Source of the DNA: Mesotaenium endlicherianum
Lineage: Eukaryota
Direction: 5' to 3'
Length of the DNA stretch: 64,000 nucleotides
NCBI GenBank assembly: GCA_009602735.1
Contig: WELA01002258.1
Coordinates: 78,746-142,745 of the forward strand
Shown here: positions 10,473-49,385 of the stretch, piece by piece
Position numbering within the stretch: the first letter of the stretch is position 1
Layout: each line of letters begins with the position of its first letter
Notes under the pieces: model-generated
The model's database searches: none
The model's input: only the letters and a program-made list of their open reading frames with translations
Told to the model about the DNA's origin: nothing
Made by a program: the position numbers and the translations under genes

Positions 10473-13400
10473 ATGGCAGATAAATTTGATACTACATTGA
10501 CATCTTTGCTTAAGAAAGCAGCAGAGAAGCATGGAGATAATTCTGCGCTAATAGTAGCTGAAGGAGGACCATCCGTTACTCATGCTCAGCTGCAGGTTCG
10601 TGACTGATCACTACCTCGGAAATGACTTGTTACCTTTTTATCCATGAATATATGGTCTATAGGACGTTCGGGTCTTGATATAGACAGAGTCTTTAGCATT
10701 GAAGCTTTGAGTTCTTGCTGCGTCAAATGGGAATATTGGGACTGTCTCCACTTCGTGATGATTGTTGTGGGCAGAAATTTCCTGAGTTAAAGAATTGGTT
10801 TCATCGTATGTACTGAACGTATTTGGTCCGACACATGAGTCTGCTGATATTGTGAAAACATATTGGTTCGTGTGGAAGCGAGTAGTACAATTATTTCTGG
10901 TCAAAGACAGGGCGGACCTAAAGTTTCAACACTTCTTGTTATTTTTTTCGGTGTCAAGAAGCGCACCCAAAATTGTGGAAGTGTTCTTGCTACAGTGTCA
11001 CTGTGTCTATTGCTGTCTCCGTGTAATTTTGACTCATGCTCATTGACTACCAGCTCGTCCCCACAAACTGTGCAGCTCGTGGCTGACTAAGTGTGAGATA
11101 TTTGAAGGCCGGGCAAACTGTCATCAGCTCTGAGCTCAAGCGCAGCCAGGCATTAGTTGACAGCAGTTGCTCCTATGCTTCTTCCTGTAATTCGTTCTGG
11201 TTCTGAGCCAGCGCTACTGGGGCTTTAATTGATATAGCAGAGTTGGGTCCTCCTTTTCCTCTGCTTTCTTTTCGGGAGGCGCAGAACGCCACAGCCCCAG
11301 AAGTAGGCCATAATCACCCAATTCGACTAGAAACGTTGTTCTATGTGTCAATGCCTGTACCCTCAGATCCGTGTCACGTGTATCAAAACAAAAGGTTAAA
11401 TCTGTAGGAGGGGTAAGCAGATAGCTGCTGGAGCCATCTACAGCAGAAGGTTCAGGATGTTTGCAGTTTAGTTCAGGCTTATTTAGCGGGCCAGGCTGTC
11501 CATGGCAGTCAATGACCACCAAGAGGAGGTGGGTGGATGAATCAAACTTTGCATCATCATACTTCCCTCGCCCTGTAACCTCATAGAATAGTCTGCCTGA
11601 GGCCTGGGGCCTGGGGCCTGCCTCTCCCGCTCTGGCTACTCCTACTTCTTGGGAATGCATGGGGCAGGGGGCAGGGGGCAGGNNNNNNNNNNNNNNNNNN
11701 NNNNNNNNNNNNNNNNNNNNNNNNNNNNNNNNNNNNNNNNNNNNNNNNNNNNNNNNNNNNNNNNNNNNNNNNNNNNNNNNNNNNNNNNNNNNNNNNNNNN
11801 NNNNNNNNNNNNNNNNNNNNNNNNNNNNNNNNNNNNNNNNNNNNNNNNNNNNNNNNNNNNNNNNNNNNNNNNNNNNNNNNNNNNNNNNNNNNNNNNNNNN
11901 NNNNNNNNNNNNNNNNNNNNNNNNNNNNNNNNNNNNNNNNNNNNNNNNNNNNNNNNNNNNNNNNNNNNNNNNNNNNNNNNNNNNNNNNNNNNNNNNNNNN
12001 NNNNNNNNNNNNNNNNNNNNNNNNNNNNNNNNNNNNNNNNNNNNNNNNNNNNNNNNNNNNNNNNNNNNNNNNNNNNNNNNNNNNNNNNNNNNNNNNNNNN
12101 NNNNNNNNNNNNNNNNNNNNNNNNNNNNNNNNNNNNNNNNNNNNNNNNNNNNNNNNGGGCAGGGGGCAGGGGGCAGGGGGGCGGGCGGCCTTCAGACTGA
12201 AGATATGAAGAGCCTTTGGCATTGACTGCACAGCGCCTCGCAAGTTGAGACTCTAAGCCACGTGGTCATTCCTTCTTCCTTCTGAGGGGCAGGCTGCGAT
12301 CGATGCTGCAGCTGCCCAGATAAAGCGGGCAGGGGTGAAGCCGGGCGACCTCGTCTCGCTGGCCTTTCCCAACACGCTTGAGGTGGGCTCCATGCGGCTC
12401 ACCTGCTCTCCCTGGTCCTGGGGCTGGCTTCAAGCGGAACCAATTCAGGGGCTGTGTGTTATGGGCTTCCACCTTCTTCTTGGAAAGTGCACCTGCCCCT
12501 CGCATGGGACTGCAGAAAGCCCCTCTTTTCTGTGAGAGCGCCAAGTGTCACGAACTTTACAGCATGCATGCATGGGCATCACTCCTCCCTGGGCTTCTTG
12601 GCTGCTCTCTGCCTTCTCTGTCAAAAATTCGATATAGTGACACTAGATTGCTTGTGTTTGTAGTAAGGGTGCTGCTTGCCCCTGTTTCTCCAGGGACTCG
12701 CGTGTCTCAACCCGCTTAGCTTCCCTCCCCCCAACACTAATGTCCGCTTGTGTGTGTGTGTGTGCGTGTGTTGGGGGGGAGGGGAGGAACAGTTTGTGGT
12801 GCTGTTCTTAGGGGTGGTGAGGGCGCGGGCGGTGGCAGCCCCGCTGAACGCGGCCTACACGCAGGATGAGTTCAAGTTCTTCATGGAGGACGCGCACAGC
12901 AAGCTGCTGCTGGTGCCCGCAGCCTCCGGCAACCCGGCGGCGGAGCAGGCTGCGGCTGCTCTGGGGGTGCCCGTGGCCGGCGCTCTCGACTGGGCCGCCC
13001 AGGTGGGGGGCCCATCCACTCCCACTATGCCCGCGCATCCTAGTAGGCTACGCTGGGAGTGGTGTGTTTCGGGCTATTAGGGGCTGGGGCTGAAGCTGGG
13101 CCTGGGGCTGGGGCTGGGGAGTTGGAGTGCGGTGGTTCTGAGGAGTTGGGTGTGCACCGTATTGCTATGGCTCTGGAGACTGGGACCACCCCACCCCACC
13201 CCAGCCTCCTCCTCGGGTCTTCCTCACTCCCCTTTCCAGGTTGCTTCTTGGGGCGGAGAGAGGAAGAATCTCAAAGCACCCACACCTGTACATTATCGCC
13301 TGCAGGCGCTGCCACACACGTACCGACACCCACAGCTGGGAAGTGGGTTAAATATGACAGGTGTGCACAGGGTGTGACGCCTCTCCCTCCTCCTCCTCCT

Positions 13401-16400
13401 CCTTGTGCTGCTGCTGCTGCTGCTGCTACAGGGGGTGGTGCTGGAACCGCGAAGCGGCCTCGGCCTGGCCCCAGAGGGCTCGCAGGAGCCGGGAGAGGAG
13501 CCGCAGGCGGCGGATGAGGCGCTGTTTCTGCACACGTCCGGCACCACCAGCCGCCCCAAGGGCGTGCCGCTGACACATGGCAACCTAGCGGCCAGCGTGC
13601 TGAACATCATTGCCACGTACGAGCTCTCGCCTGCCGACAGCTGCTACTGCGTGATGCCGCTGTTCCACGTGCACGGCCTTATGGCGGCGCTGCTGGCCTC
13701 GCTGGCGGCCGGCGGGGCCACGGTGCTGCCGGCATCGGGCCGCTTCAGCGCGGGTTCCTTTTGGGGCGACGTGGCGGCGCACGGGGCCACATGGTACACG
13801 GCGGTGCCCACCATCCATCAGATCCTGCTGTCGCGCCACCGCAGCAAGCAGCCCAACGAGGTAGGCATCCTCGCTGCTGCCGCTACCACTGATGCTGCTG
13901 CCTCCTGCCCGCCGACCTGTCTGTGTGCCAGCTCGTGCCTGCCGCCTGCTGCCTGCTGCCTCCTGCGTGCTCCCCAGTCCACCTGTCCGCCTTGTCCAAC
14001 CCAGCCCAGCCCACACTGGAGTTCAGGCAGGCCAGCAGTGGCCGGGCTTCTGCTTTTGCCTAAGCTTCTCTTCCTCTTTCACCTCGCACGCAGCCACCCT
14101 CTCTGCTCACCGGGCTCCACGCTAAAAGTGCGCACGTGGGAGCGGGGACCTGGGAATTGGGCCCTGGGGGCTGGGGCTAATTTAAGGAGGGGGGTGGGTG
14201 TGCAGCCATACCCGGCGCTGCGGTTTGTGCGCAGCTGCAGCGCGTCCCTGGCGCCCGCCGTGCTGGAGGGCCTGGAGGGCGCCTTTGGGGCACCCGTACT
14301 GGAGGCGTACGCCATGACTGAGGCGTCGCACCAGATGTGCGCCAACCCCCTCCCCGCGCACGGCCCCCACAAGCCCGGGACAGTCGGCAAGGCCACGGGC
14401 ATCCAGCTGGCAATCCTGAGCGAGGAGGGCGAGGAGCTGCCGTCGGAGAGCGTGGGCGAGGTGTGCATCCGGGGCCCCAACGTGACAGCGGGGTATCGCG
14501 GAAACCCGGCGGCCAATGAGGCGGCGTTTGCGTACGGGTGGTTCCATACGGGGGACCAGGGCAAGCTGGACTCCGACGGGTACCTGACCCTCACGGGGCG
14601 CCTCAAGGAGCTCATCAACCGCGGCGGTACGCTTGCTCACGAGCACACACCCCACATGCATGCACGCACCCATACGCATGCGCACACACATGCAGTGCAC
14701 AGGCCTGCAGACACACACATACACCCTCACATGCATGCACACATACGCACACGCTCGCCCCAGCACACATGCACACATACACCTAGACACAGTCGCACAT
14801 GCACGCATGCACTCATACACACACGCACATGCACACGCCCTGCACGCACACACAGACGCGCACACTTTCACACAGAGACATACCTGCACACGCTCACACA
14901 AACACGGAAACACCCGCACATGCACACGCACACGCACACACACACACTTACACACACACACACACACACACTCACACGCATGTTAATAGCCCCTCTGACC
15001 GGGCTGCACAAGACTAAGGGTTTGCAAGCAGCTTCATGAAAAGAGTGGTATGGTCCGAGGTTGCTCCCTCTCCGCCTCACAGACATTGACATGCCGACAT
15101 GTGCACACGCACACGCACATACAGACTCTCTCTTTCACACACGCACACACACACACACTCACACGTAGCCTCTGCGCCCTTGGCATATATAGCCCACATG
15201 ACAATGAGGAACAACGGGTGTACATGCTGCCCGTCATGGGCTGCTGAACGGAGGGCGGCACCAGTGCTAGACTGCAGTGGCCCCTGCTCGCCCTCGTCGT
15301 CCCGGAAGGCTGGCTGACCATTTTCCGCTTGCTCCGCTGAGAGTCCGTGCGCACATTACCGTTAAGTGACGCGTCCTTTGCGTCTGTCTGTGCATGTGTA
15401 TACGCGTGTTTGTGTATACCAGTGTGCATGTGTATTCATGCGAGAGCGCGCGCGCGTGTGTGTGTGTGTGTGCGTGCATGTGTGTCTATGCTAATGCGCG
15501 CGAGCGTGTGCGCTCAGTATGTGTCTTGAGGCGTTTCTCTCTGTCTCAGGAGGGACTGGGCGGCAGAACCAGGAGTGAGCACGTGGAGGCTGACAAGAGT
15601 GGATTGAGTATCCTTCTCTGTGGGGCCTGCAGGAGAGAAGGTGTCGCCTGTGGAGGTGGACGCCGCCATGCTCAGTCACCCGGCCGTGGCAGAGGCCGTC
15701 GCGTTCGGCGCTCCCGACGAGAAGTACGGCGAGGAGGTAGGCCTGACGGTCATGCACTCTCACACGTGAAGAGCTCAATCACCACACCCTGTGTTGCTTC
15801 CTGCTCGATGTTCCAAAGAGCTCTCCTGCTTGTGTAGGTGCTTTGGATGGGGAGTGGCCGAAGAAGGCGCAGCTCCCTTGCCTGGGCTGCCTTGATGCGC
15901 GCTGCATACTTCGCCACCCGGCACACTTTCGGCCCAACCCCTGGCAAGAGGGTAGACTGTTCAGTGTGCGTGGCAGCGCTTGCCCACAGAGAGCGGTATC
16001 GGGTCTTTGTCTGTCTGGCAGAGGGCAAAATTGCTGCAGCATCGATCTTGCACTCACTCACTCACCTCACTCTCTCTCTCTCTCCCCCCACTCACTCACA
16101 AACACCCAGCCACTCTCTCGGAGGGCTACAGCATTGGTGAGCAATATGCGCGAACCTGAGCCGCCTGCCCGTCAGCTCGGTAACACCGCTGATAACCTCG
16201 CCCGCCCACCCTACCTCCCTTCTAACCTCTCCGCAAGGGGGCGTCTGTGTGCGCGTGCGCACGCCTGCAGGTGAACGCAGCAGTGGTGGTGCAGGCGGGG
16301 CAGGAGCTCACGGAGGAGGGCCTCAAGGACTTCCTCAAGCGCCAGCTGGCGGCGTTCAAGATCCCCAAGCGCGTGTTCTTCGCGGACTCGGTGCCGCGCA

Positions 16401-16504
16401 CGGCCACCGGCAAGATCCAGCGCCGCTTCGTGGCCGAGCACTTCCTCCAGCCGCCGCCCGCCGCCGCCGCTGCTGCCGACGCCCCCCCCTCTGGTACCCC
16501 CTGA
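10473..16504 (+). CDS. AAE3: Oxalate--CoA ligase (acyl-activating enzyme 3-like, ANL superfamily); possibly the N-terminal half of a fusion with the downstream decarboxylase
   Basis: Exons 10473-10595 (MADKFDTTLTSLLKKAAEKH), 12293-12382, 12793-13002, 13432-13860, 14206-14626, 15633-15736, and 16271-16504 (stop) or -16493 (donor). Motifs: PLNAAYT, FLHTSGTTSRPKGVPLTH (AMP-binding), PLFHVHGL, RSCSASLAP, LEAYAMTEASH, WFHTGDQG, KELINRGGEKVSP, PRTATGKIQRR. Confidence 0.92.
11661..12181. repeat. (GGGGGCA)n G-rich tandem repeat flanking an assembly gap (N 11683-12156) in AAE3 intron 1
   Basis: GGGGCAG units on both sides of the N run. Confidence 0.7.
14640..15490. repeat. Degenerate (CA)n/(TG)n microsatellite tracts in AAE3 intron 5
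   Basis: Long CACACA/GCACAC arrays followed by TGTGTG arrays. Confidence 0.85.
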
Positions 16505-17930
16505 ACCTTCTTCTCGTGGGGAGGGGGGAAGGGGAGGGGGGGAGGGGAAGACTGCCAGGAGGGGAGAAGGACGCAGTTTTGCACGTGTGCACGCGTGTAC
16601 GCGTGTGCGATCCCCACTTTCTGGCCATTGGCTCGCTGCTTCTTGGAAGGCGACTGCTCTTATGGGTGGATCCCTCTGGGCCCACGCCGTCGTGTGTAGG
16701 TGTCAGATTGTCACCGCCAGCTTGTAGACGTGCAGAGCGTAGATTATACATTAACATCCCTCCCCATCCAACCCCTTTCTTATTCTCTCCCTGTCTTGGG
16801 CTCCTGACCCCACCCAGGTAGGCAGAAGGTAGCAGCAGCGCTAGTAGGAGTGGCAACCGGGAAGAGGCACCTGCAGGGGTAGTACTGCTAGCCTAGGCCA
16901 AGTACCTGTGGTGGCGCTCGGCCCCCTGAGGCACAGGTCTGAGCCTCCTGCTGTACCGCCACCTTTTATAGTGGAAAAAAACCGATGAAGAATGACCTGT
17001 TGCCGGCTTCTTTGGGCTCAATGTTCTGCCTCTTTCTGAGTGCCTATTTTGACTATCCACTGAAGGCGTCAGCAGCAGCACGCATGCTCTTGTGGTGATG
17101 CCACCTGGTTATCTCGTTGCTGGGATTGGTTGTATGGCCAGTGTTGAGCTTCAAGTAAAGAGTAGCGGGCACACGTGATTGCTGGCTGCCACGCAGAAGA
17201 AGCTCTGTATCATATCTGCTGAATGGGTGGGCAGGAGAGCACGTGCCTTACAAGTAGAGTGGGTATGATGGAGCAGTCTGAGGGCCTGGAGGCTTTGTTC
17301 GGCTGGTCCTCCGCTTGGAGGTGGTGCGCGCACACATGTGCGTGCGTGTGGGCATACCTATGTGTGTGTGCGCGCGTGTGTGTGTGCAACGTCTGTGTAA
17401 GCACGTTGCCTGTGTCGCCTCTCTTAGTGAGCAGGTTTGACTACAGCGTGTCTGATGTGGAGGCACCTTCTAGATCTCGTCAGATGAGCTAACCCCTTGT
17501 TGCAGACCACTTCTCAATATAGCGAAACTGGAGGCAGCGAGAGTGCACAAGTGCCAGGTCAATAGCATGTCATACCGGGACTTTCTGTCCATGTGGCGTC
17601 CTCGTCTGCCGCCAGCGTGGCGTTGGCCTCGAGACATTGTGCCGCGTGTATAATACAAAGTCCACCTGGCAGCATCAGCATGATCATTGGTAGTGCCGCT
17701 CTGCTGCCTTGTGCCAGCTGCTGCCATACCGCCAGGAGCACTCTGGGTGTGCCGGGCCCGTCCCTCACTCGCCAAAGACGAGTGTTGGCGCGTGAGTTGC
17801 AACTCCCACGCATGCATACACTGCATGCAAATCTTGTGTACGTTGTTTGTGTGCACGCGCTCGCTCCTTTGGGCTTATGTGAAACATGCGTGGGCCTGCT
17901 GGCGTCGTCGTATCCAAACGTGTGCAACAG

Positions 17931-20900
17931 CACCGCCAGCAGCCGCGCCACTTGTGGACGGCAACGCAATGGCGGCGCGCGCGTTGGCGGCAGCCGGCGT
18001 GCGCTTCATGTTTGGCGTGGTGGGCATCCCCGTCACGCAGCTGGCCACGGAGGCCCAGAAGGCCGGCATCCGCTTCATCGCCTTCCGCAACGAGCAGGCG
18101 GCCGGCTATGCCGCGGGCGCCGCCGGGTACCTCACGGGGGTGCCGGGGGCGCTCCTGACAGTGTCGGGGCCCGGGTGCGTGCACGGCCTGGCGGGGCTCA
18201 GCAACGGAATGATCAACACGTGGCCGCTGGTCATGGTGTCCGGCTCCAGCGTGCAGGCCGACCGCGGCAAGGGCGACTTCCAGGAGCTAGACCAGCTGGC
18301 GGCCGTGCAGCCGTTCGTCAAGTCGGCCGGTGAGGGCGGCTTTCCCGCTGGGGCCTGCCTGCCTGCCTGCCTGCCAGCTGACTTCCTGTGTTCTTGGCGC
18401 TGTTGTGCCATCTTGCAAGCGCTGCTGTAAATGCTCTCCTTGTCAATGCGTCAGAGCTCACAAGGAGGGAGGGATGGAGAGAGGGAGAGTGAGAGGACGG
18501 TGGAAATTGATTTGAGCACTTTCGTGAGCACCTTTTCATGCTTGCACGAACAGCCTCGCTTACACGGGATAATGGAGGGACCTGCCTGCTGGTCTCCTGG
18601 GCGGGCGGGTGAATGGGTGGCGTGCAGGCCAGGCGAGGAGCGTGTCCGAGATCCCCCAGCTGGTGGCCAGCCAGGTGGCGGCCGCCTGCAGCGGCAGGCC
18701 GGGCGGCACCTACTTAGACCTCCCCTCTGACATCCTCCACGAGACTATCACCGAGGACGAGGCTCAGGCCCTGCTGGCGGAGATCTGGCCGTCCGTGCCC
18801 TCCTGGGCGGCAGAGGGGGCACAGGCGGCAGGGGCAGAGGCAGCTCCGGCGCCAGCGGCGCCAGGCCATGCCCGGGGGGAGGCGGAGCAGGCGCGGGTGG
18901 ACGAGGCCTTTGAGCTTCTCAGGGCCGCCAAGAGCCCCCTGGTGGTGGTGGGGAAGGGCGCGGCGTACGCGCGCGCGGAAGAGCCCCTGCGCGAGTTTGT
19001 GGAGGCCGCGCGCATCCCGTTCGTGGCCACGCCCATGGGTAAGGGGGTGCTGCCGGATGCGCACGCGCTGTCGGCGGGCGCGGCACGGTCGCTGGCGCTG
19101 GCGGCGGCGGACGTGGTGCTGGTGGTGGGCGCGCGCCTCAACTGGATGCTGCACTTTGGCGAGGCTCCGCGGTGAGGAAGAGAGGCAGACGCACGCTCGC
19201 TCGCTCGCTTACTCTCCCTCTCTCTCGCTCTCACACGAACACTCTCTCCCTCGCTCCTCCGTCAGTGACTATCTTCCTGTCGATTCTGCTTTGGTTTGTC
19301 GACCTCTCTTGTTCTGTCTCTCCTTTAGACTTGTCTGCCTCTCCGTCTGTCTGTCTGTCTGTCAGTGTCTCTCGGGCTGCACCTGCGGCAGTCCCTTGCG
19401 CCCACTCCTCAGTGCTTTATTTTGGGGCACCCCTTGGCTCATTCCCACGCCCTCATTCACTTGTGCTTAGCACTCCGTCACAACAACAAGCAGCACAGGG
19501 TACCGGAGTTGAGCCAAGACCAGAGCCAAGCTGACCCGTGGATGCATGGAGCAAGTGCCGGAGCCAGAGGGCCGCTCGCACTGCCCAGCCCTCGGCTGCT
19601 TGCGCCGCCTGCTCCGCGCCCGGTGGCGTCCGCCCTCTTCTCTGCTTCGGCTTCCGCCTACCTTGCTGCATCATTCCCACATCCACATCCACATCCTGCA
19701 GGAGCGCTAGCACCAGCGCTCTTTGGCCTGCGCTCCGCGTGCAGCTCCGCGCCCCGCCTTGTGCGCTCCATCATGACTTCGAGGTGCTTAGCGCCCTTCA
19801 CTCCATGCTCCTGTCTCATCTCCTCTCACTGACCCTCTCGCATGAGAGAGAATGTGCTGACATCCTCCCCCTCGCACGCCCCTCCCTTTCTGTCTGTCTG
19901 TACCCTCTCTGTATTTCTGCCAGGTGGAGCCCGTCGGTGAAGTTCATTCTGGTCGAGATAGACGAGGGCGAGGTGGCGCTCCGTAAGCCTGCGGTGGGGC
20001 TGGTGGGTGACGCACGCGCCGTGATGCGCCAGCTGTCCCTCAAGCTGCGCGCGCTGCCCTTCTCTCTGGGGCAGGACTCCCCCTGGCTCACCAAAATCCA
20101 GGTAGGGCTCGTATTTCAGGAGCTTACCTCTTGTGAGTGTCCTGCATAGAGAGGGATGGATAGGGAGATAGGGAGGGGGAAAGGGAGAGATTGGGGGGAG
20201 GGCGGGGGAAGCAACTTTGCACCTGCTCTCTCTACATGGCTGTTGCCGTCGACACGGTGCAGGGAGCACTAAGCACACAGCATTCTCCTCGTCTCACTTG
20301 CCAGCCCCTGACGTGTGTGATATCTCAAAGGAGAAGCCGCAACTGCATGGTGCCGCACCACTGTGTTGCAAGGGTTGAGACGAGTGCTGAGCTGCGGATG
20401 GGGGGGGGACCCGGTGGGGCGGGGGAGGGGAGAGCAGGAGAAGGTGCGCGTGAACGCGGAGCGCATGGCCGCCAGCCTGGCGCGCGACGTGGTGCCGCTC
20501 AACTTCCAGTGCTCCCTGCGCATCATCCGCGACGCCATCGCCGCCGTCGGCTCCCCTTCGCCCATCCTCGTCTCCGAAGGTGCCTCCCTCTTCATGCGCG
20601 CGCGCACGCACGCACGCACACACACATACACACACACACACCCTCATGCATCACCCTCCCTAATCAAAAACACAACCCACGTAGATGAAGGGAGACGACA
20701 ACCGCTTGGATTAGAAGCGGGCATGCCCCGCTAGACACAAGTGTGTGTTTGACGTCAGCCCACCCTGCTCACCTCTGTGTCTCGAATTTCTTCTTGCTCC
20801 TCTTTCCGTTCGTTCTGCCTGCATGCGAGACAGTATCCCGGTGCCACTAAGCTGGGCGGCAGATGTTATCAGATGTATGGAAGCTGCCGAAAGTCTCACC

Positions 20901-22396
20901 GTACCTCCCCCCCGGGGCCTGACATGGGGGTGCATACCGCATACCATTGCGACGTCTTAGCTGACTTGGAGCATGCAGTCACGCCCTAGGAGCCCACACA
21001 CTGCTCTCCTCGCCCTGGGAGATCACGTCACGAAGCAGCTGGAGAGCAGTCGCAACTCCGATTGCAGCTGCTGGACCGCTCCAGCAGCTCCAAGCGCCAG
21101 AAAGCAGACAGAGGGTGGGAGGGAGAGGTAGGGAGAGGCTTGCTGTTTGCGCATGCCACGCCATGCCCACGCCTGGTGCCTCCTGGAAGCGGGTGCAGGT
21201 GCCAACACCATGGACGTGGGGCGCTCCGTGCTGGAGCAGACGGAGCCGCGCTCGCGCCTGGACGCCGGCACCTGGGGCACCATGGGCGTGGGCATGGGCT
21301 ACGCCATTGCGGCAGCTGTCACGCAGCCAGAGCGCCTGGTGGTGGCCGTAGAAGGAGACTCCGCGTTTGGCTTCAGCGGGCTGGAGGTGGAGGTGAGCAT
21401 GCGCGTGCTACACAACCACATATACACAGGCAGGCCCCCTTGTGCGCGTGCACGCTCGTGCACCTGTGGCCCAAATGGTGGTCAATTCTGGTCCGCACTT
21501 CGTGTGTTGCGTTCCCGCCCACCCGCCCATGCCAGCGCATACCCCCCCCCCNNNNNCCTCCCCCCCCTCCCCTCCCCGGGCGCCCCCTTCGTGTGGGCAG
21601 GGGCTGCTTGTTTGCCCCTTGCAGGTCAACGCGTAAGAATAGACGCCGCTTTGTTTTTCTGTAAGGCATGTAGGCAGAGGGCCGGTTTGATCAGACGGGC
21701 AGCTTGCTTTTCTTTGCTTCAGGCTGGAGAGCCGCAGCTTTCTGCTGCCTAGTTGCTGCGAGCTCGTGAATGGCGTTGAAGAGCAGTGAGGATGCGTGGC
21801 CTCTTTTCTTGGCTCTGTAGCTGTGGGAGAGCTAAGCTGGAATGAACGCACTCGACGTCTGTGTCGCAGCTGGTCTGCTCCCCTCTTCATTAAAGAAGCC
21901 AAGATAGCATGCACATTGATAATGTACTTCCAAATACGTTATTGGTGCCCATGCCTCTGTCTTGGACTGCTGGAAGTGTGCAGCGTCACATTCGCCTCTG
22001 GCACAGTGGGCCTGAAAGAAAAGCAACATCCTTTTTGTTGGTGGGAACTCATACAACCCTTCAACATCTGCGTGCTTGCAGACGCTGGTCCGCTACAAGC
22101 TGCCCGTGGTCGTCATCGTGATGAACAATGGAGGAGTTTACGGAGGTGACAGGAGGGGAGCAATTGACCTGCCAGAGGCGGTCCGAAATGACCCCCCACC
22201 TACTTCCTTTGTGCCCAAGGCTCGATATGATCTCCTCATTGAAGCCTTTGGCGGGAAAGGGTACTTCGTGCACACGCCCGAGGAGCTTGCTGAGGCTCTC
22301 CATGAGGCTTTCTCTGCTAAGAAGCCGGCAGTCATTAACGTGACCATCGACCCCATGGCTGGTGTGGAGAGTGGCCGGATGACGCATAGGAACTGA
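17931..22396 (+). CDS. HACL1: Oxalyl-CoA decarboxylase / 2-hydroxyacyl-CoA lyase (ThDP-dependent); no in-frame ATG between the 17930 acceptor and the conserved N-terminal VDG motif
   Basis: Exons 17931-18329, 18628-19171, 19924-20101, 20438-20579, 21199-21392, 22082-22396 (TGA), all phase-compatible. Motifs: [79 protein letters not shown], ThDP motif GDSAFGFSG...NNGG. C-terminus ESGRMTHRN resembles plant HACL/OXC. Confidence 0.92.
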
Positions 22397-24600: not shown

Positions 24601-24786
24601 ACAGCTTAAGCCCTTACCATAGGACTACTCTGAAGATCATGATGTGCTTCCAGTGATGTTTTGGGCCATACTTCATTGGTTGTTTTCCTACCAGATTACA
24701 GTCTTGAGGTGCTCACTCTGGAGAGTACACATCCCTTACTTCTAAAAGATGTCTCTTTGCCTGCAAGCAATTAGAACCTTCAGCGT

Positions 24787-27777
24787 ATGCCTACCCGTAG
24801 TGGGCTTTCTTATCAGCCATACTACGAAGGGGTTAGTGGAGAAGACTCGGACTCAGATCTCAGCACTATCACTGAACCCGCCGAAGAAGAGCAACCTGCT
24901 CTCCAGCACACAGCAGTTGCTTATGAGCCATCTCCCCAGTGGGCTCACTACGATTTCTGGTATCCCATGGCAGGTGACCACGAGGTCAGGACTGACAGGT
25001 CTGCCTACCGCTTCAGCGATAGGCCAGGCACCTGTGATCGGGAAGATACCATCTCGGAGTTTCAAGCTGACTTCGCGGCTGCAAAGCTCAAGACATCCAC
25101 GGTGACTAAGCGCGACGTCTTCGACACGCTTATGCGCTACCTCTCGCACGAGGCCCGCGACACCTTCCGTGAGAAGGAGGCCAAGCTCCGGACCCGCACT
25201 GAGCTTGTGGGTGACCCACCAGTGGCGACCCTGCTAGCTGATCCAGTGCAAGCCTTCTGGAACATCCTGAAGACAGAGTTCCAGGCTGCAACTGAAGAGA
25301 AGGTGTACGAGCTGCACCATTTCTTCCGACGCAAGAACGAGACTATCCGCATGATGTACCGCCGCTTGGTGCACCTCCGCCGCGATGTCGGCACTGTCAC
25401 TGACCGAGAGGCCGCGGAGATCTTCTTGCGCGCCGTCGAGCCGCGTCTGAGGGAGAGGGCCGTAGTCCCCCTCATCGACCGCCACGGTTCAGAGTATTCT
25501 CTGGAGCAGGCCTACCTCTCCGTTGAGAAGCAGAGCTTGGCCGCCGCACGGAGCAACATTAGCGATCGTGTGGGCTTAGCATCCACGGGCGTGCGCCAGG
25601 AGGCCTCAGTGCTGCCGTCTTCTACGACGCGCACGACGCCTGCCCGCCAGCCCCAGTCGCAGCAGCAGCAGCCTCAGCGCTCTCAGCTGCCCCAGCAGAC
25701 GCAGCAGCGCGGAGCTACGCGTGGCCGCATTTCCATGGCTGCCACTACGAGCGATCCCTGCTGGTCCTGCAGGAAGACGGGCCACTCACGCCAGCACTGC
25801 ACTCTCGCGCAGAATGGCAAGCCCGGCGACTGCACCTATTGTGGCAAGGCCGGCCACCTGCAGATCGTCTGTCTGCAGAAGAAGCGCGACGTCGAGAACG
25901 GACGCGCTCGCAACGGCCCTACGCCTTCAGCAGGACAGCGAGGCGCACGCAACCCTCGTACGGGTGGCCGCCCCGCGATGACAGCAGCTACGGCCACGAC
26001 GGACGCCGCATTGATGCCTGGAGCCAACGACTGCAGCTTCGACGACGTCAGCGACGCCCTCGTGGAGGCCAACGCGGAGATCGCTAGACTCCGTGGCCTC
26101 GTCGACGTCGATGACTATGACGCGTGCGGAGCACTCCTCGCGTTCGCTCCACCGTCCTACGCCACAGAACTGACAGCTGGCTCACGCACAGCTTCAGCGT
26201 ACACATCAGGCTCAGCGGCAGCGCCGCAGCCCCGCGCACGTCCGCGTTACGACGTAGCGCCCGCTGCCAGAGCTGCAGGCGCTCGCACAGGCAGCTCTGC
26301 TAGCCTTGTGCGCACCGCTCTGACAGCTGTCAGCAGCGACAGCCGGAGTCCCGACAGACTGCCGGATGGAAGGCTGCACGACTGCGCGGTTGCGCCATCT
26401 CCCGGCGCAAGCTCGCGCGCACGCGGGCCAGCCCGCGCGCCAGCCAAGGCCCCGACAGAGCCCCTGGCTTGCGCTTCCCTGCTGGCACCAGCAGGCCTCC
26501 CGTCGGCCCGCGTAGCGACAGCTGGCAGGCAGGGACGGGGGCACCTGGCGGCGTGCACGGCTACAACTGGGCCGGCCGCAGCCTCCCTCTTCGTTCGTGC
26601 GGCACTCCCGTGCGCAGCTCTGCGCACAGGCAGGGACAGCCGGTCCCCGCTGGCTGCTGCAGACAGCAGGCTCCAGCAGAACCCGCCACATGGCACGTGC
26701 ACGGCAGGCGAGGCCGCCTCTGCCGACAGCAGCATGCACGCACGCACGCTGGCTCACACGCGCGCCCAGCGCACTGCGCTGCCAGGTCCACGGCACACCC
26801 GGCGACGCCACGCCGTCGTCACAGCGGCAGCTGCAGCTGCGCAAAGCAGCTGCACCCACGCGCTGCCAAGTGGCGCGTGCGCGCAGGTCTGCACGGCCAG
26901 CGCAGCGACGGCCGCAGCGGCCGCCACCCTCGGTCAGCAAGGGGGGGTCCTGACTGCGCTGTGCGGCCGGATCGCCGGCAAAAGCGCCGACAGCGCACCC
27001 GCAGCTGCGCACATCCAGGGCTCAGCCCCTGCCGCACACGTGCTGCCACTTGGCACGCGCGCATGGCCCGGCTCAGCCCGTACAGATCCAGCGGTCGGAG
27101 CAGCCACCCGCAGTCAGGGGGGGGCTATACCCACTGCGCCACGCGGCCGGATGTTCGATCGCGGTGCCGACGGCCCGCGCACGGTTGCGCACAGCCAGGG
27201 CCTAAACCCTGGCTGCGCACAAAACCCCGGCAGCAGCCCAACGCAGGCTGCCGGGGGGCCGGTTAGCCCACGCATCGGGGGGAGGGCGCTGCGATCTTCG
27301 CCCGGGGCAGCCGAGATAGACGGCGCCACCGGTCCAGTGACCCTGCCCCTCGGCCCCAGCAGCCACCAGGGGGCGCCACCTGGCAGCCTCCTGGCAGCCC
27401 CGACCGCGCCAGCAGCTGCAGCAACTGCTGCAGCCGCGGCCGCACACGCGCCGGGGTCCGCAACTTTTGCGGCCGAACCCGCGACCGGCTGCACGGCAGG
27501 CCTTGCGGCAGGCTGCGCAAGGAGTCCTGCGGCAGACAGTGCGGCAGTTTGCGCGGCAGGCTGCGCAGCAGGCCTCGCGGCGCGCCCTGCGGCAGACAGT
27601 GCGGCAATCTGCGCGGCAGGCTGCGCGGCAGGCGCGACGGCAGTTCCCGCCACCGGCTGCGCGGCAGGCACGGCGGCAGATCTTGCAACGGGGGGGCTAT
27701 CCCGACTACGCCACGCGGCCGGATGTCCGATCGCGGTGTCGACGGCCCACGCACTGCTGCGCATTGCCAGGGCCTAA
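24787..27777 (+). CDS. gag: Gag of element A (capsid-like region, two zinc knuckles) plus an Ala-rich spacer; frame broken by an internal duplication
   Basis: MPTRSG start; knuckles CWSCRKTGHSRQHC and CTYCGKAGHLQIVC at ~25759-25872. Confidence 0.8.
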   Translation: MPTRSGLSYQPYYEGVSGEDSDSDLSTITEPAEEEQPALQHTAVAYEPSPQWAHYDFWYPMAGDHEVRTDRSAYRFSDRPGTCDREDTISEFQADFAAAKLKTSTVTKRDVFDTLMRYLSHEARDTFREKEAKLRTRTELVGDPPVATLLADPVQAFWNILKTEFQAATEEKVYELHHFFRRKNETIRMMYRRLVHLRRDVGTVTDREAAEIFLRAVEPRLRERAVVPLIDRHGSEYSLEQAYLSVEKQSLAAARSNISDRVGLASTGVRQEASVLPSSTTRTTPARQPQSQQQQPQRSQLPQQTQQRGATRGRISMAATTSDPCWSCRKTGHSRQHCTLAQNGKPGDCTYCGKAGHLQIVCLQKKRDVENGRARNGPTPSAGQRGARNPRTGGRPAMTAATATTDAALMPGANDCSFDDVSDALVEANAEIARLRGLVDVDDYDACGALLAFAPPSYATELTAGSRTASAYTSGSAAAPQPRARPRYDVAPAARAAGARTGSSASLVRTALTAVSSDSRSPDRLPDGRLHDCAVAPSPGASSRARGPARAPAKAPTEPLACASLLAPAGLPSARVATAGRQGRGHLAACTATTGPAAASLFVRAALPCAALRTGRDSRSPLAAADSRLQQNPPHGTCTAGEAASADSSMHARTLAHTRAQRTALPGPRHTRRRHAVVTAAAAAAQSSCTHALPSGACAQVCTASAATAAAAATLGQQGGVLTALCGRIAGKSADSAPAAAHIQGSAPAAHVLPLGTRAWPGSARTDPAVGAATRSQGGAIPTAPRGRMFDRGADGPRTVAHSQGLNPGCAQNPGSSPTQAAGGPVSPRIGGRALRSSPGAAEIDGATGPVTLPLGPSSHQGAPPGSLLAAPTAPAAAATAAAAAAHAPGSATFAAEPATGCTAGLAAGCARSPAADSAAVCAAGCAAGLAARPAADSAAICAAGCAAGATAVPATGCAAGTAADLATGGLSRLRHAAGCPIAVSTAHALLRIARA

Positions 27778-28261
27778 ACCCTGGCTGCGCACAAAACCCC
27801 GGCAGCAGCCCAACGCAGGCTGCCGGGGGGCCGGTTAGCCCACGCATCGGGGGGAGGGCGCTGCGATCTTTGCCCGGGGCAGCCGAGATAGACGGCGCCA
27901 CCGGTCCAGTGACCCTGCCCCTCGGCCCCAGCAGCCACCAGGGGGCGCCACCTGGCAGCCTCCTGGCAGCCCCGACCGCGCCAGCAGCTGCAGCAACTGC
28001 TGCAGCCGCGGCCGCACACGCGCCGGGGTCCGCAACTTTTGCGGCCGAACCCGCGACCGGCTGCACGGCAGGCCTTGCGGCAGGCTGCGCAAGGAGTCCT
28101 GCGGCAGACAGTGCGGCAGTTTGCGCGGCAGGCTGCGCAGCAGGCCTCGCGGCGCGCCCTGCGGCAGACAGTGCGGCAATCTGCGCGGCAGGCTGCGCGG
28201 CAGGCGCGACGGCAGTTCCCGCCACCGGCTGCGCGGCAGGCGCGGCGGCAGATCTCGCAAC
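27118..28261 (+). repeat. 572-bp near-perfect tandem duplication containing GCGGCAGGC minisatellite units
   Basis: GGGCCTAAACCCTGG at 27198 and 27770 (offset 572). The same peptide appears in two different frames. Confidence 0.9.
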
Positions 28262-28863
28262 GGGCCCCGCGGCAGGCCTCGCGGCAAGCTGCGCGCACGG
28301 CGCTGCAACAGGCCCCGCGGCAGAATGCGCGGCAGGTTTGCCGGCTGCGCCAGCAGCGGCCATTCTGGCCTGCTGCGCACGCGCGCAGCCACTCGGCAAC
28401 CGCTCCGCAGTCGGGCGCGCGAGCCGCGAGCACACGCTCGCAGCACCGGTCAGTCGGCCCGTTGTTCCGCAGAAGCGCGTCGGGCCAGACCAGGGACGAC
28501 GGACGGAGGAGGCACCGCGGTTGCCTTGTTCCTTCCGCATCCTAGAGCCCTCCACGACCTCAGCAAAGCCGACGCCACATGCGCTCACTTCGCCTATGAC
28601 GACGGTGCAGCTCAGCGCCGAGGTCATCTCTCTAGCACTGCACCGCATGCCGGCGGTCTCCTTCGCAGAGCTCGGCGTCTCCATGGAGGCAACGAGGCAA
28701 GCCGCTCAGCTAATGCTCCAGTCGCGCAGAGCCACGCTGCGCACCGCCGCCAGGAGGCCGATGGCCGATGCCGCCACCGCGGTGCGATCCACGCCCGCGC
28801 GCCGTGCGCATGAGCGCAGGATGATCAGCACTCCTAACGCCGCGTTTTTGGATAATTCGCAAG

Positions 28864-29230
28864 GGATTGTGCTCGTCAACACCCAGGCGATGCAGCGCAT
28901 CATGTTCGACACAGGCGCGCAGCCAGTTCTCATCAGCTTCCGCTACTTCCGTCAGCTAGGACTCTCTTCCGCTGACTTGGAGGACTCTCCGACGCGCATT
29001 AACACCGCCGCCGGCACGTCCGAGACCGTCGCCAGTCGCACGAGGTTGGCGCTACTGTTCACTCTGCACCCAGGCACGGCAGACGAGACAACCATCCATC
29101 GGCACGCACTCGTCACTCCTTCCGAGTCCTTCGATGTGCTCCTAGGGCAGGACGTGCTCTTTCCCATTGGCGCCGCGGTCGACAACTGGGCAGAGCGCGT
29201 CTTCTATCGTCCCGACTGGAGGACAGGGGA
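28864..29230 (+). pseudogene. Aspartic protease domain of element A
   Basis: IMFDTGAQPVLIS (DTG at 28908) and FDVLLGQDVL. Confidence 0.85.
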
Positions 29231-31266
29231 ACGCGCACCGCATCCTTGCCCCTTGACATTGCCGATCGCCGCCCAGCAGTGTCCAGCTTCATGGGGCTGG
29301 ACGATGGCCGGCCAGTGGTCAAGACCAATAAGGACGGGCCCGAGGACGAGGAGATCTCTGTGGGGGTGGACCTGCTTGAGCCACAGGACGAGGAGCCGGA
29401 CCTACCTAGTGCCGAGCTCCACCTCACGCCGCAGCAGCAGGCGGATGTCCTGGCAGCCCAGGCCAGGGAGCAGATCCGCATCTGCACTGCCCCACAGCGC
29501 GATGATGCGGCAGATGGCGGACGATGCCACTGAGGCCCTCGCCACGGCTAGCACAGCCATCGCTGCCGCCGCCCTTGCTCGCGGTGCGGTCGCAGCGCCT
29601 ACAACTCATCAGGGGGTCTCGCCCTCTCGCCGCAAGCCGTCTGCGAGGACCGACGTCCGCGTTCGCCACGACGTGCCTGTTGGCGTGGCCATTCAGTACA
29701 GTATGGACTCTCAGCCGCCCCCTCACGACGCCTCGCATCAGACCGGAAAAACCTGGCCTCGCACCACGGCATCCGAAGACGAGGCCATGCGGCAGGCAGC
29801 TTATCCTGGCAGATCCGACGACCAGTCCCTCAAGAGTGAGGAGGAGACGCAGTGGGAGCGACTGCCAGAGGCATCCGTTGAGGTACTCAGCGCGGCGCCT
29901 CCAGAGGAGCCCCCGCCAGCTGCGCCTACGGCACGCAGGCAGCGCGCACCTACTAGTCCGCCCGGCTACAGCGCACCCAGCCAGCCCATGACACACGACT
30001 GGCCCAGCAGGGCTCGCACCGACACCGCTGGACCCAGCCGTCCAGTGTCACACGACTGCTCAACGAGCCACGAGTGTCGCCGCATCGCACATTTGTTTAC
30101 GACAAGCCGGGCTGCCGTGGCCTCCTCTAGCGCTGGCACACACTCCATACAGCAGCCAGCGCCCAGGCTCAGCGTCCGCGAGCCACCCCGCACAACCCCG
30201 TCTATCTGCGCCCATCTGACCTACGCACATCGCACTTGGCCGACCATTGGACCCGCTCGAGAGACCACTCCTCTCCGCGAGACGAGCCGCTCCCGATCGC
30301 TCACACCCCTTTGCGAGACGCGAGAGGTGACTCCCCTCCGTGAGATGCGAGCCCGCTTCGTCACGCCACCCTACGACGACAAGGAGCGCACACTTCCTTA
30401 CGACGACACGCGGGCCCGCGGGGACACGTCGCCATACGACGACACTCGAGACCAACGCCGCACTCCGCCCTTCCGACCCCTCTCAGCTGGCGACAACGCT
30501 CAGTCTTCTTCCGAGGCGCATTTCGTGATGCTGGCCCCTACAGCTCCGCGCGCCAGCGTCCCTCGCAGCCACATCGCTGGCAACGGTCCCTCCGGGTCAC
30601 CTCCTCCCAAGGTGGCCCGCACCGACAGCAGGCCGCCCAGTCGTCACCCATTTACGGCCGCCGCACGCACACGGCTCATGTCTAGTCTCCGGCAGCCCCG
30701 AGACGCGCCCGTCCCACGAGGGCAGCCCCGGCCGCGAGTCCAGCTGGCCCCTCGCCGGCTAGTTCGGTCCCCGCAGGAGGTCAAAAGCTTCGAGTGCTCC
30801 GTCTGCACAATCCCCTCTGCAGACATGCGCGCACGCCAGCGGGCCTACTTCGACCCGCACCCCTACTTAACTCAGCGTTCCGTTATCGACCAGCTGGCCC
30901 ACGTGGCCTCGCACCAGACTGACCACGCCCAGCGCGACAGGTGGCAGCAGCTGTGCGTGGCCTCGGCCCGACGTCAGGCCCGCGCTGTCTCCCCGACAGC
31001 CCTGCAGGATGCGCGCCTGCGGTGGCGCACCTACCAGGACCACGTACGGGAGGAGCGTCCGCAGCCGCTCACTGACCGCATCCCCAGCCTTACGCGTGAC
31101 TACGCAGACCGTGCTGTGGCCGCCCTCCGCATGGCGCCACATCAGCACAGCGCCGAGCGTACCTTCCCGCCGCCCGCTCAGCCCGGCACCCCCGCAATGG
31201 GGTGTCGCCCACTTCCGACTCCTATCTGCGTAGACTCTCTAAGACGGTCTGGACGAGCGGCCCGGC

Positions 31267-49351: not shown

Positions 49352-49372
49352 ACAAAGAAGACTGTGATAACT

Positions 49373-49384: not shown

Positions 49385-49385
49385 C

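What the first reader, a model, noticed from the sequence alone, without database searches (positions are those of the whole stretch)
10473..22396. Probable single-gene fusion of oxalate--CoA ligase and oxalyl-CoA decarboxylase
Seen: an AAE3-like gene and an OXC/HACL-like gene lie on the same strand only ~1.4 kb apart. The last ligase exon runs into a Pro/Ala linker (QPPPAAAAAADAPPS) with a phase-1 donor G|GTACCC at 16493/16494. The first decarboxylase exon starts at a phase-1 acceptor CAACAG|CA (17930/17931) with more linker (APPAAAP). Its first ATG (17969) lies downstream of the conserved VDG motif. Direct joining gives 3372 nt, an open 1123-aa protein. Established: these enzymes perform steps 1 and 2 of the CoA-dependent oxalate pathway (oxalate > oxalyl-CoA > formyl-CoA) and are separate genes in Arabidopsis and maize. 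Inference: a bifunctional enzyme that may channel oxalyl-CoA. I cannot say whether such fusions are already recorded in algae or bryophytes.
Basis: partly seen in the sequence, partly recalled or inferred. Interest (0 to 1): 0.8.

Follow-up and report, generated by a model that had tools for sequence, protein, structure and literature searches.

The report
Fused oxalate ligase-decarboxylase gene, two outputs
One 13-exon gene of this green alga is spliced into a single messenger that joins an oxalate-CoA ligase to an oxalyl-CoA decarboxylase (predicted to carry out two successive steps of oxalate breakdown), and it likely also gives a shorter ligase-only messenger; the fusion itself is already on record in many algae and mosses, so it is real but not new.

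Summary
The coordinates, splice sites, phases and the 3372-nt/1123-aa open frame are all as stated. RNA-seq reads from 4 runs of 3 studies (36 reads) join 16493 to 17931. No RNA lies in 17094-17819, so the decarboxylase has no start of its own here.

The fusion is not new. An identical fused gene model for this locus is public (P0003, 1100 aa). Of the 120 related protein clusters listed, 52 carry both the ligase and the thiamine-enzyme domains. They come from zygnematophytes, Chlorokybus, liverworts, Sphagnum, many chlorophytes, Galdieria and Chromera. Trees place the separate vascular-plant enzymes inside the fused clade, so the split state looks derived.

Three details appear to be unrecorded. 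RNA depth runs on past the donor and the TGA at 16504 to about 16985, and decarboxylase exons have only about 0.3-0.6 of the ligase-exon depth. The gene therefore likely also makes a 536-aa ligase-only mRNA by polyadenylation inside the linker intron. The public model misses 23 residues holding two core ligase motifs. Eight literature searches found no paper on the natural fusion. Catalysis and channelling are untested. Interest is moderate.

The parts
10473..10595 (+). Exon 1 (ATG at 10473; residues 1-41 of the ligase)
   Evidence: Exact match to P0003 residues 1-41. Donor CAG|GTTCGT. The N-terminus aligns with the fused homologues. GC is 0.42, unlike the other exons. No RNA was laid here.
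12293..12382 (+). Exon 2
   Evidence: Intron 1 holds the 474-N assembly gap at 11683-12156. The alignment shows no missing residues.
12793..13002 (+). Exon 3
13432..13860 (+). Exon 4 (holds TSGTTSRPKG, residues 176-185)
14206..14626 (+). Exon 5, ending ...WFHTGDQ...GRLKELINRGG. The public model P0003 ends this exon wrongly and loses these motifs.
   Evidence: Loose ends at 15632 in all 4 runs (53, 76, 13 and 96 reads) read ...GGGCGCCTCAAGGAGCTCATCAACCGCGGC, which is the end of this exon. Donor GCG|GTACGC. Compared with P0003. A gap against PDB 5ie0 falls at the same place.
15633..15736 (+). Exon 6
   Evidence: Joint 15734>16269 (cut +2), GT..AG, in all 4 runs..
16271..16493 (+). Exon 7: end of the ligase (PRTATGKIQRR) and first half of the Pro/Ala linker; phase-1 donor G|GTACCC
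16494..16504 (+). Read-through codons (G)GT ACC CCC TGA, which would end a 536-aa ligase-only protein in ...APPSGTP*
   Evidence: Sequence; length and 55.7 kDa. That this frame is translated is inferred.
16505..16985 (+). Likely 3' untranslated region of the ligase-only mRNA, lying inside intron 7. RNA depth equals or exceeds exon depth in 3 of 4 runs and falls to near zero by about 16985.
   Evidence: Depth table and same-strand orientation. The stretch is unique within the window. Poly(A) tails were not seen in the rows shown, so the 3' end is inferred from the depth profile.
16494..17930 (+). Intron 7 (1437 nt), removed in the fusion mRNA
   Evidence: 36 junction reads. Zero depth in 17094-17819 in all 4 runs. 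No internal repeats.
17931..18329 (+). Exon 8: second half of the linker (APPAAAP), then the start of the decarboxylase (LVDGN..., NEQ glutamate). ATG 17969 lies inside it.
   Evidence: Joint 18328>18627 (cut +1) in all 4 runs.
18628..19171 (+). Exon 9
19924..20101 (+). Exon 10
20438..20579 (+). Exon 11
21199..21392 (+). Exon 12 (GDSAFGFS thiamine-diphosphate motif)
22082..22396 (+). Exon 13 with the stop codon; the protein ends ...GRMTHRN, with no peroxisomal SKL-type end

Best explanation
A single 13-exon gene (10473-22396, + strand) is spliced into one mRNA whose 1123-aa product joins an AAE3-type oxalate-CoA ligase to an oxalyl-CoA decarboxylase through a Pro/Ala linker, and it is predicted to turn oxalate into formyl-CoA and CO2 on one polypeptide. 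Shown: the exon structure, the open frame, the domain content, and the exon 7-exon 8 junction in RNA. Also shown: no independent decarboxylase start appears in the four runs laid. Likely: the same promoter also yields a ligase-only mRNA. When intron 7 is not spliced, the frame stops 11 nt later at TGA 16504, and the RNA ends about 480 nt further on, which would give a 536-aa stand-alone ligase. The choice between splicing the linker intron and cleaving inside it would then set the ligase:decarboxylase ratio, with the decarboxylase never made alone. Inferred from established knowledge of the two families: the ligase half adenylates oxalate and forms oxalyl-CoA, and the thiamine-diphosphate half decarboxylates it. 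The decarboxylase half would form the oligomeric core, as solved OXCs are recalled to be tetramers, with ligase domains tethered by a flexible linker of variable length. Proximity may favour hand-over of oxalyl-CoA. The fused state is old: it occurs in green and red algae and in bryophytes, and the separate genes of vascular plants appear to derive from it.
For: Junction: loose ends at 17930 in 4 of 4 runs (10+12+3+11 reads, agreement 0.9-1.0) equal the unique window sequence 16463-16492. Depth is 0 in 17094-17819. The sites are GT-AG and both phase 1, giving 3372 nt and 1123 aa. Domains: AMP-binding 4.8e-80, AMP-binding_C, and TPP_N/M/C. Nearest solved proteins are 5ie0 oxalate-CoA ligase (2.6e-171) for the N half and oxalyl-CoA decarboxylases for the C half. 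NCBIfam equivalog NF006721 oxalyl-CoA decarboxylase scores 616.3 bits against a cut-off of 557. Core ligase motifs and the NEQ, GDS...NN motifs are present. Conservation: 52 of 120 listed clusters carry PF00501 plus a TPP domain, and 55 of 231 held proteins have both halves by BLAST, 54 in the same order. Transcript-derived fused ORFs exist in other taxa: P0004 from Trinity, Polytomella, and Gloeochaete. Ligase-only output: in bins 16610-16851, depth is 62-70 (X9), 98-102 (X10) and 26-57 (X15), against 43-49, 123-130 and 19-23 in the ligase-exon bins. The orientation is the same and depth falls to 0.3-1.5 in 16973-17093. Mean depth of six fully exonic decarboxylase bins is 0.34-0.59 of that of two ligase bins (my arithmetic). 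Two of the runs are poly(A)-selected. Polarity: unfused lycophyte, fern and seed-plant proteins nest inside starred (99) clades that also hold fused liverwort, Sphagnum and zygnematophyte proteins, in both half-trees.
Against: No enzyme activity, protein product or channelling was tested. No poly(A)-tailed read was among the loose ends shown, and 7 rows were not shown. The tool masked repeats at 16441-16491 and apparently around 16519-16573, so unbroken reads from exon 7 into the intron are not directly displayed. Depth in bin 16489-16609 is low (7-30). In the non-poly(A) run X12 the intron-7 stretch has only about 0.35-0.4 of exon depth. No ligase-only protein with the ...APPSGTP end is in the protein collection. 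TIGR03254 (oxalyl-CoA decarboxylase) scores 581 bits, below its cut-off of 739. The trees are 'quick' searches on rows that I chose, and some 'unfused' rows are truncated or split gene models.
Confidence: 0.8

Rival explanations
1. Two neighbouring genes with occasional read-through ('conjoined') transcripts. On this view the ligase gene normally ends at TGA 16504 and about 16985, the decarboxylase has its own promoter and start (for example ATG 17969, or the in-frame ATG 17825), and the fusion mRNA is a minor by-product.
For: Strong RNA depth runs on after TGA 16504 to about 16985. An in-frame ATG lies at 17825 upstream of the acceptor and another at 17969. Some public models of close relatives are split, such as Sphagnum balticum at 581 aa.
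Against: Depth is 0 in 17094-17819 and at most 1.4 per orientation (at most 2.2 with both summed) in 17820-17940 in all 4 runs. Reads crossing 17931 carry the end of exon 7 with agreement 0.9-1.0. Decarboxylase exons are well covered (12-43 mean depth), so their RNA must come through this junction. The same fused order is kept in 54 proteins across green and red algae. LVDGN upstream of ATG 17969 is conserved.
Confidence: 0.05
2. The fusion is real but acts on another acid. The thiamine half would be a 2-hydroxyacyl-CoA lyase or synthase and the ligase would activate a different small carboxylate, so the pair would serve alpha-oxidation or formyl-CoA condensation and not oxalate breakdown.
For: Sources name many relatives '2-hydroxyacyl-CoA lyase'. 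Solved HACL/HACS enzymes score nearly as well as OXCs (8vzd 8.7e-146, 6xn8 6e-137). TIGR03254 is below its cut-off.
Against: The best solved match of the N half is the oxalate-CoA ligase 5ie0/6qjz, at 1e-162 to 1e-171, far above malonyl-CoA and other ligases. NF006721 OXC passes its cut-off, whereas the HACL equivalog NF058623 scores 226 against 600. The abstract and passages of PMC8004701 report that the Arabidopsis protein AtOXC decarboxylates oxalyl-CoA and is co-expressed with AAE3; AtOXC itself was in none of my searches or trees, and its belonging to the seed-plant clade next to the window's C half is recalled. A fusion of two enzymes of one pathway is itself a hint of coupled function.
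Confidence: 0.1
3. The RNA over 16494-16985 is not a mature ligase-only mRNA. It would instead be unspliced precursor, a stable intron fragment, or a separate small transcript on the same strand.
For: No poly(A) tail was displayed. Reads appear cut at 16518 and at 16574-16582, and depth dips in 16489-16609. X12 shows less depth here than in exons.
Against: A precursor would cover the whole intron, yet depth is 0 beyond about 17094. Depth equals or exceeds exon depth in the poly(A)-selected runs X9 and X10. The cut points fit the tool's own repeat masking. Lower depth on the decarboxylase exons independently requires transcripts that end before exon 8. Ligase-only ORFs that stop inside the linker sit next to fused liverwort and zygnematophyte proteins.
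Confidence: 0.2

Closest known systems
Arabidopsis AAE3 (oxalate-CoA ligase, PDB 5ie0/5ie2/5ie3), Lathyrus oxalyl-CoA synthetase (6qjz), and Arabidopsis AtOXC
   Same: The two chemistries and their order in the CoA-dependent oxalate pathway are the same. The N half matches 5ie0 at 2.6e-171 over its whole length. The C half lies in the same starred clade as seed-plant OXC-type proteins (AtOXC itself was not a row). There is no peroxisomal end, in line with the cytosolic AtOXC and AtAAE3 (PMC8004701, passages read).
   Different: Here there is one 1123-aa chain, and the decarboxylase is not expressed on its own.
Database-recorded fused ligase-decarboxylase proteins of algae and bryophytes. Examples: Sphagnum fallax BDL97_09G066300, Marchantia paleacea Mapa_006291, Calypogeia fissa, Closterium spp., Chlorokybus Chrsp75S07584, Chlorella sorokiniana, Coccomyxa sp. 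Obi ('probable 2-hydroxyacyl-CoA lyase at C-terminar half'), Galdieria sulphuraria and Chromera velia.
   Same: They share the domain order, a length of about 1090-1160 aa, and a low-complexity linker. The spacing from motif A10 to GVVGIPVT is 38-94 aa with a median of 54.5; the window's is 50. Identity to the window's protein is 45-65% over 95-100% of its length. The window's own locus is among them as P0003.
   Different: Chlorophyte and Chromera members end in SKL/SKM/AKL-type tripeptides, whereas the window's protein and other streptophyte members end HRN/HKN. No paper on any of them was found. Whether they also give a ligase-only mRNA is unknown.
Bacterial oxalyl-CoA decarboxylase (Oxalobacter 2c31, E. 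coli 2q27)
   Same: It has the same thiamine-diphosphate fold and motifs. E-values are 7.8e-133 and 4.7e-144 over the full length of the C half.
   Different: Bacterial OXC is a stand-alone protein and, by recall, works with a formyl-CoA transferase and not an ATP-dependent ligase.
Gloeochaete wittrockiana (glaucophyte) transcript P0160
   Same: The same two enzymes sit on one 1127-aa ORF.
   Different: The order is reversed (decarboxylase 15-547, ligase 644-1104) and it ends SRL. It is likely a separate fusion event. It rests on a single assembled transcript that I did not check further.

Membership tests
AAE3 / oxalate-CoA ligase (adenylate-forming ANL superfamily) | AMP-binding and AMP-binding_C domains | tested here: met
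   PF00501 4.8e-80 at residues 14-381 and PF13193 3.2e-18 in P0003.
AAE3 / oxalate-CoA ligase (adenylate-forming ANL superfamily) | Core motifs for ATP binding, hinge and catalytic lysine (TSGTTSRPKG, WFHTGD, GRLKELINRGGEK, PRTATGKIQRR). The motif roles are recalled, not tested. | tested here: met
   All are present in the 1123-aa model, at residues 176-185, 396-401, 415-427 and 501-511. The second and third are missing from the public 1100-aa model.
AAE3 / oxalate-CoA ligase (adenylate-forming ANL superfamily) | Closest characterised relative is an oxalate-specific ligase | tested here: met
   5ie0 'Oxalate--CoA ligase' 2.6e-171 and 6qjz 4.5e-162. In one search the next ligase class, malonyl-CoA synthetase, scores 2.5e-64 against 5.2e-187 for P0004.
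AAE3 / oxalate-CoA ligase (adenylate-forming ANL superfamily) | Oxalate-dependent formation of oxalyl-CoA | not testable with these tools
   Needs an enzyme assay.
Oxalyl-CoA decarboxylase (thiamine-diphosphate enzyme) | TPP_enzyme_N, M and C domains in order | tested here: met
   PF02776 at 522-634, PF00205 at 734-862 and PF02775 at 935-1083 of P0003.
Oxalyl-CoA decarboxylase (thiamine-diphosphate enzyme) | Passes curated OXC family models | tested here: inconclusive
   NF006721 scores 616.3 bits against a cut-off of 557, which passes. TIGR03254 scores 581.1 against 739.4, which fails. Both models are built for bacteria.
Oxalyl-CoA decarboxylase (thiamine-diphosphate enzyme) | Cofactor-activating glutamate (NEQ) and the GDS...NN diphosphate/metal motif. 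The roles are recalled. | tested here: met
   These columns are invariant in all 17 aligned sequences. They lie at residues 585-595, 1007-1014 and 1032-1041 of the model.
Oxalyl-CoA decarboxylase (thiamine-diphosphate enzyme) | [quoted passage not shown] | not testable with these tools
   Shown for AtOXC in PMC8004701 (abstract and passages read). AtOXC itself was not in my trees.
Fused ligase-decarboxylase architecture (database-recorded) | Both halves in one open frame, ligase first | tested here: met
Fused ligase-decarboxylase architecture (database-recorded) | One mRNA spans both halves | tested here: met
   36 junction reads in 4 runs.
2-hydroxyacyl-CoA lyase (HACL) | Passes a curated HACL model; peroxisomal targeting end as in animal HACL1 (recalled) | tested here: not met
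   NF058623 scores 225.6 bits against a cut-off of 600; this model is actinobacterial. The protein ends HRN.

The most novel reading that the evidence does not exclude
The locus is a living intermediate between a fused and a split pathway. One promoter makes both a stand-alone oxalate-CoA ligase and a ligase-decarboxylase fusion, through competition between splicing and polyadenylation in the intron that sits exactly in the linker. The decarboxylase is never made alone. This dual output is conserved in zygnematophytes and liverworts, where ligase-only ORFs also stop in the linker. It is the route by which the ancestral fused gene of green and red algae broke into the two separate genes of vascular plants.
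Probability: 0.35. Interest if true: 0.55.

Novelty: new member of a known kind. Interest (0 to 1): 0.38.

Why it matters
The work on plant oxalate catabolism that I saw (search listings and abstracts; passages of PMC8004701) deals with AAE3 and OXC as two separate enzymes. [quoted passage not shown] They also suggest that the split state of vascular plants is the derived one. This gives independent 'Rosetta-stone' support for the functional pairing of AAE3 and OXC. It offers a natural bifunctional enzyme with which to test channelling of oxalyl-CoA. If the ligase-only isoform holds up, it is also a clear example of how intronic polyadenylation in a linker intron can set the ratio of two activities and prepare a gene for fission. 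In practical terms, it corrects the public gene model, which lacks two core ligase motifs, and it flags split or truncated models in Klebsormidium and Sphagnum.

Tried and rejected
1. The look-up of sequencing runs listed no holder on record as RNA. The RNA evidence comes only from raw-read runs of the same species label that were laid.

As a result, exons 1-5 and 10-13, the exon 1-exon 2 join across the N gap, and the exact 3' end of the short RNA were not checked against reads.

3. The genome search 'own' holds no genome for this window. A second decarboxylase or ligase copy elsewhere in the genome could therefore not be looked for.

4. My first automatic exon chaining chose wrong splice sites and gave 1062 aa. 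It was replaced by exact mapping of P0003 plus the RNA-supported junctions.

5. A search for a ligase-only protein ending ...APPSGTP found none. Only P0003 matched, at 97% identity. This is weak evidence, because the collection need not hold this isoform.

6. Eight full-text searches found no paper describing a natural ligase-decarboxylase fusion. The hits for 'fusion' were GFP or His-tag fusions (PMC8004701, passages read). Subscription journals and supplements were not covered.

7. The search of earlier findings had nothing by place or by sequence. By words it returned only bacterial NRPS starter cassettes with an oxalate-type ligase, which do not bear on this locus.

8. I considered and dropped structure or complex prediction of the two halves. 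No claim in this report rests on a domain-domain contact.


Full report
**1. The observation**

The window is GC-rich eukaryotic DNA with assembly gaps: N runs lie at 11683-12156, 21552-21556 and two more places.
- Exon 7 codes ...FVAEHFLQPPPAAAAAADAPPS and ends G|GTACCC at 16493/16494. If it is not spliced, the frame reads GTP and stops at TGA 16502-16504.
- Exon 8 starts after CAACAG at 17931 and codes [19 protein letters not shown]... Its first ATG is at 17969, downstream of LVDGN.
- I mapped the public protein P0003 exactly onto the window and listed the GT/AG options at each boundary. Thirteen exons then join into 3372 nt and one open 1123-aa frame. Both sides of intron 7 are phase 1.

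**2. RNA evidence**

No run is on record as an RNA holder of this stretch. Raw RNA-seq runs with the same species label could nevertheless be laid. I laid four runs from three studies on 15400-19000.
- Two ordinary junctions appear as joints in all four runs: 15736^16271 and 18329^18628.
- The junction in question appears as a loose end, because the tool masked the repeat at 16441-16491. Reads whose aligned part starts at 17930 carry, upstream, the letters GCCGCCGCTGCTGCCGACGCCCCCCCCTCT.
- Read counts were 10, 12, 3 and 11, with agreement of 0.99, 0.9, 1 and 1.
- That 30-mer occurs once in the window, at 16463-16492, even when 2 mismatches are allowed.
- Since 16493 and 17930 are both G, the join is 16493^17931 under the GT-AG rule.
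- Depth is zero in every run from 17094 to 17819, and at most 1.4 per orientation (at most 2.2 summed) in 17820-17940.
- An in-frame ATG at 17825 upstream of the acceptor is therefore not used in these samples. The decarboxylase exons (mean depth 12-43) are reached only through exon 7.

**3. A second output**

The same table shows RNA of the same orientation running on after the donor. The rows below give summed depth of both orientations.
- X9: 43-49 in the ligase-exon bins, 62-70 in 16610-16851, 22 in 16852-16972, 1.5 in 16973-17093.
- X10: 123-130, then 98-102, 38 and 1.1 in the same four ranges.
- X15: 19-23, then 26-57, 13 and 0.3.
- X12 (apparently unstranded, not poly(A)-selected): 65-74, then 23-27, 10 and 1.5.

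A retained intron would be covered to its end, and this one is not. The mean of six fully exonic decarboxylase bins is 0.35, 0.34, 0.51 and 0.59 of the mean of two ligase bins (X9, X10, X12, X15; my arithmetic). The ligase bins are only about 80% exonic, so the true ratios are lower. More than half of the transcripts that hold the ligase exons must therefore end before exon 8.

The simplest reading is cleavage and polyadenylation inside intron 7 at about 16.85-16.99 kb. That would give a 536-aa, 55.7-kDa ligase ending ...APPSGTP, beside the 1123-aa, 116.9-kDa fusion.

Limits of this reading:
- No poly(A)-tailed read was among the loose ends shown.
- The dip in 16489-16609 and the apparent read ends at 16518 and 16574-16582 fit the tool's repeat masking, but they prevent a direct view of unbroken reads.
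- The stretch 16505-16990 is unique in the window.

**4. What the protein is**

- Pfam gives AMP-binding and AMP-binding_C, then TPP_enzyme_N, M and C.
- The N half matches the solved Arabidopsis oxalate-CoA ligase 5ie0 at 2.6e-171 and the Lathyrus oxalyl-CoA synthetase 6qjz at 4.5e-162.
- The C half matches solved oxalyl-CoA decarboxylases and 2-hydroxyacyl-CoA lyases at 1e-122 to 1e-147.
- No solved chain covers both halves.
- NCBIfam NF006721 (oxalyl-CoA decarboxylase) passes its cut-off. TIGR03254 does not, and the HACL equivalog is far below its cut-off.
- The ligase core motifs, the NEQ glutamate and the GDS...NN motif are present. Their roles are recalled from the literature on these families.
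- The Arabidopsis decarboxylase is reported to act on oxalyl-CoA, to be cytosolic and to be co-expressed with AAE3 (PMC8004701; abstract and passages read).
- The window's protein ends HRN, without an SKL-type end.
- Activity, oligomeric state and channelling are inferred, not tested.

**5. Already on record**

A search with exon 8 alone returned a 1100-aa protein that is 100% identical and carries all five domains. It is labelled jgi/Mesen1/...ME000129S00316, a label I read from memory as Mesotaenium endlicherianum. Five further fused proteins were among the 120 rows listed.

A search with the whole protein listed 120 clusters.
- 52 carry PF00501 plus a TPP domain, and 3 more carry AMP-binding_C plus TPP domains.
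- They come from Closterium, Chlorokybus, an SM0000... model, Sphagnum fallax, Marchantia paleacea and Calypogeia fissa. They also come from many chlorophytes (Trebouxia, Myrmecia, Coccomyxa, Chlorella, Micractinium, Botryococcus, Chlamydomonas eustigma, Polytomella, Ostreobium, Chloropicon, Auxenochlorella and Picochlorum), from Galdieria, and from Chromera velia.
- By BLAST, 55 of the 231 proteins then held have both halves, 54 of them in the same order.
- Several are transcript-derived ORFs: P0004, Polytomella and Gloeochaete.
- The linker is low-complexity and of variable length. The A10[10 protein letters not shown] spacing is 38-94 aa with a median of 54.5, in 50 of 56 rows.

The fusion is widely recorded, although sources mostly name it '2-hydroxyacyl-CoA lyase'. 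I found no paper about it in eight full-text searches.

**6. Direction of change**

I built a tree of the decarboxylase half and a tree of the ligase half.
- Decarboxylase half: 61 rows that I chose from the 192 proteins with a hit, quick search.
- Ligase half: 48 rows.
- In both, the unfused lycophyte, fern and seed-plant proteins lie inside starred (99) clades that also contain fused liverwort, Sphagnum and zygnematophyte proteins.
- Fused Chlorokybus, chlorophyte and Galdieria proteins lie further out.
- This fits an old fusion followed by a later split on the line to vascular plants.

Some apparently unfused models are artefacts.
- The Klebsormidium 618-aa model begins MPRTATGKIQRR, which is the tail of the ligase.
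- A 581-aa Sphagnum balticum model is 99% identical to residues 524-1102 of the fused S. fallax protein.

Three ligase-only ORFs on 1.7-2.0-kb contigs sit next to fused liverwort and zygnematophyte proteins and stop inside the linker. P0263, for example, is 86.6% identical to the Calypogeia protein over residues 1-524. This is a lead that the dual output may be conserved. It is not proof.

**7. The public model**

P0003 differs from my model only at the end of exon 5. There it lacks 23 residues net, including WFHTGD and GRLKELINRGG. RNA loose ends at 15632 in all four runs (53, 76, 13 and 96 reads) read ...CTCATCAACCGCGGC and support my version. The gap in the alignment of P0003 to 5ie0 falls at the same place.

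**8. Verdict**

The fusion is a member of a database-recorded family. What may be new is the likely ligase-only isoform from the linker intron, the corrected model, and the inference that the split state of vascular plants is derived. Interest is moderate.

Noticed in passing
window 24775-35754 (+) and 42147-49399 (-): Long uninterrupted ORFs of two Ty3/gypsy-type retrotransposons. The + copy has a protease, RT, RNase H and integrase, with a PHD finger at its end. The - copy has gag, protease, RT, RNase H, integrase and a chromodomain.
   Followed up: partly
window 10473-10595 and 22082-22396, against exons 2-12: Exon 1 has GC 0.42 and exon 13 has GC 0.57, while exons 2-12 have 0.64-0.74. The flanks of the gene are 0.39-0.45 GC. 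The gene body thus sits in a GC-rich island whose edges cut through the first and last exons. This is unexplained.
   Followed up: no
P0160 (Gloeochaete wittrockiana transcript, not in the window): The same two enzymes are fused in the opposite order (decarboxylase 15-547, ligase 644-1104), and the protein ends SRL. It is likely an independent fusion in a glaucophyte, or else a chimeric assembly.
   Followed up: partly
C-termini of fused relatives: Chlorophyte and Chromera fused proteins mostly end in SKL/SKM/AKL/ANL-type tripeptides, which resemble peroxisomal targeting signals. Streptophyte, Chlorokybus and Galdieria ones end HRN/HKN/SHN. This hints at a change of compartment between lineages.
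   Followed up: no
P0121 (Klebsormidium nitens, 618 aa) and P0022 (Sphagnum balticum, 581 aa): Two public 'decarboxylase-only' models look like cut-down fused genes. The first starts with the ligase's PRTATGKIQRR tail. The second is 99% identical to residues 524-1102 of the fused Sphagnum fallax protein.
   Followed up: partly
P0263, P0264, P0266 (Logan contigs of 1.7-2.0 kb): These ligase-only ORFs of 521-560 aa are close to fused liverwort or zygnematophyte proteins and stop 10-25 residues into the linker. They may be ligase-only isoforms like the one inferred here.
   Followed up: partly
window 15632-16339: A few reads show joints that 'go back'. One runs 16339>15664 (3 reads in X9, 1 in X12). 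Another runs 16310>15632 with 11 letters of the end of exon 5 in between (6 reads in X10). They may be mate-overlap or template-switch artefacts, or a back-splice. This is unexplained.
   Followed up: no
window 14640-15600 and 17330-17400: Introns 5 and 7 carry long imperfect (CA)n/(TG)n-like tracts, which translate as runs of H/T or C/V. A G-rich run lies at about 16519-16550, just after the ligase-only stop.
   Followed up: no
window 18102: C>G appears in 4 of 8 reads of run X15 only. It is probably a strain or allele difference.
   Followed up: no
P0125, P0126, P0128 (Closterium, 1606-1634 aa): These fused models have about 500-650 extra residues after the point where the BLAST match to the decarboxylase half breaks off, at position 391 of 586. 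They are possibly merged or mis-joined gene models.
   Followed up: no
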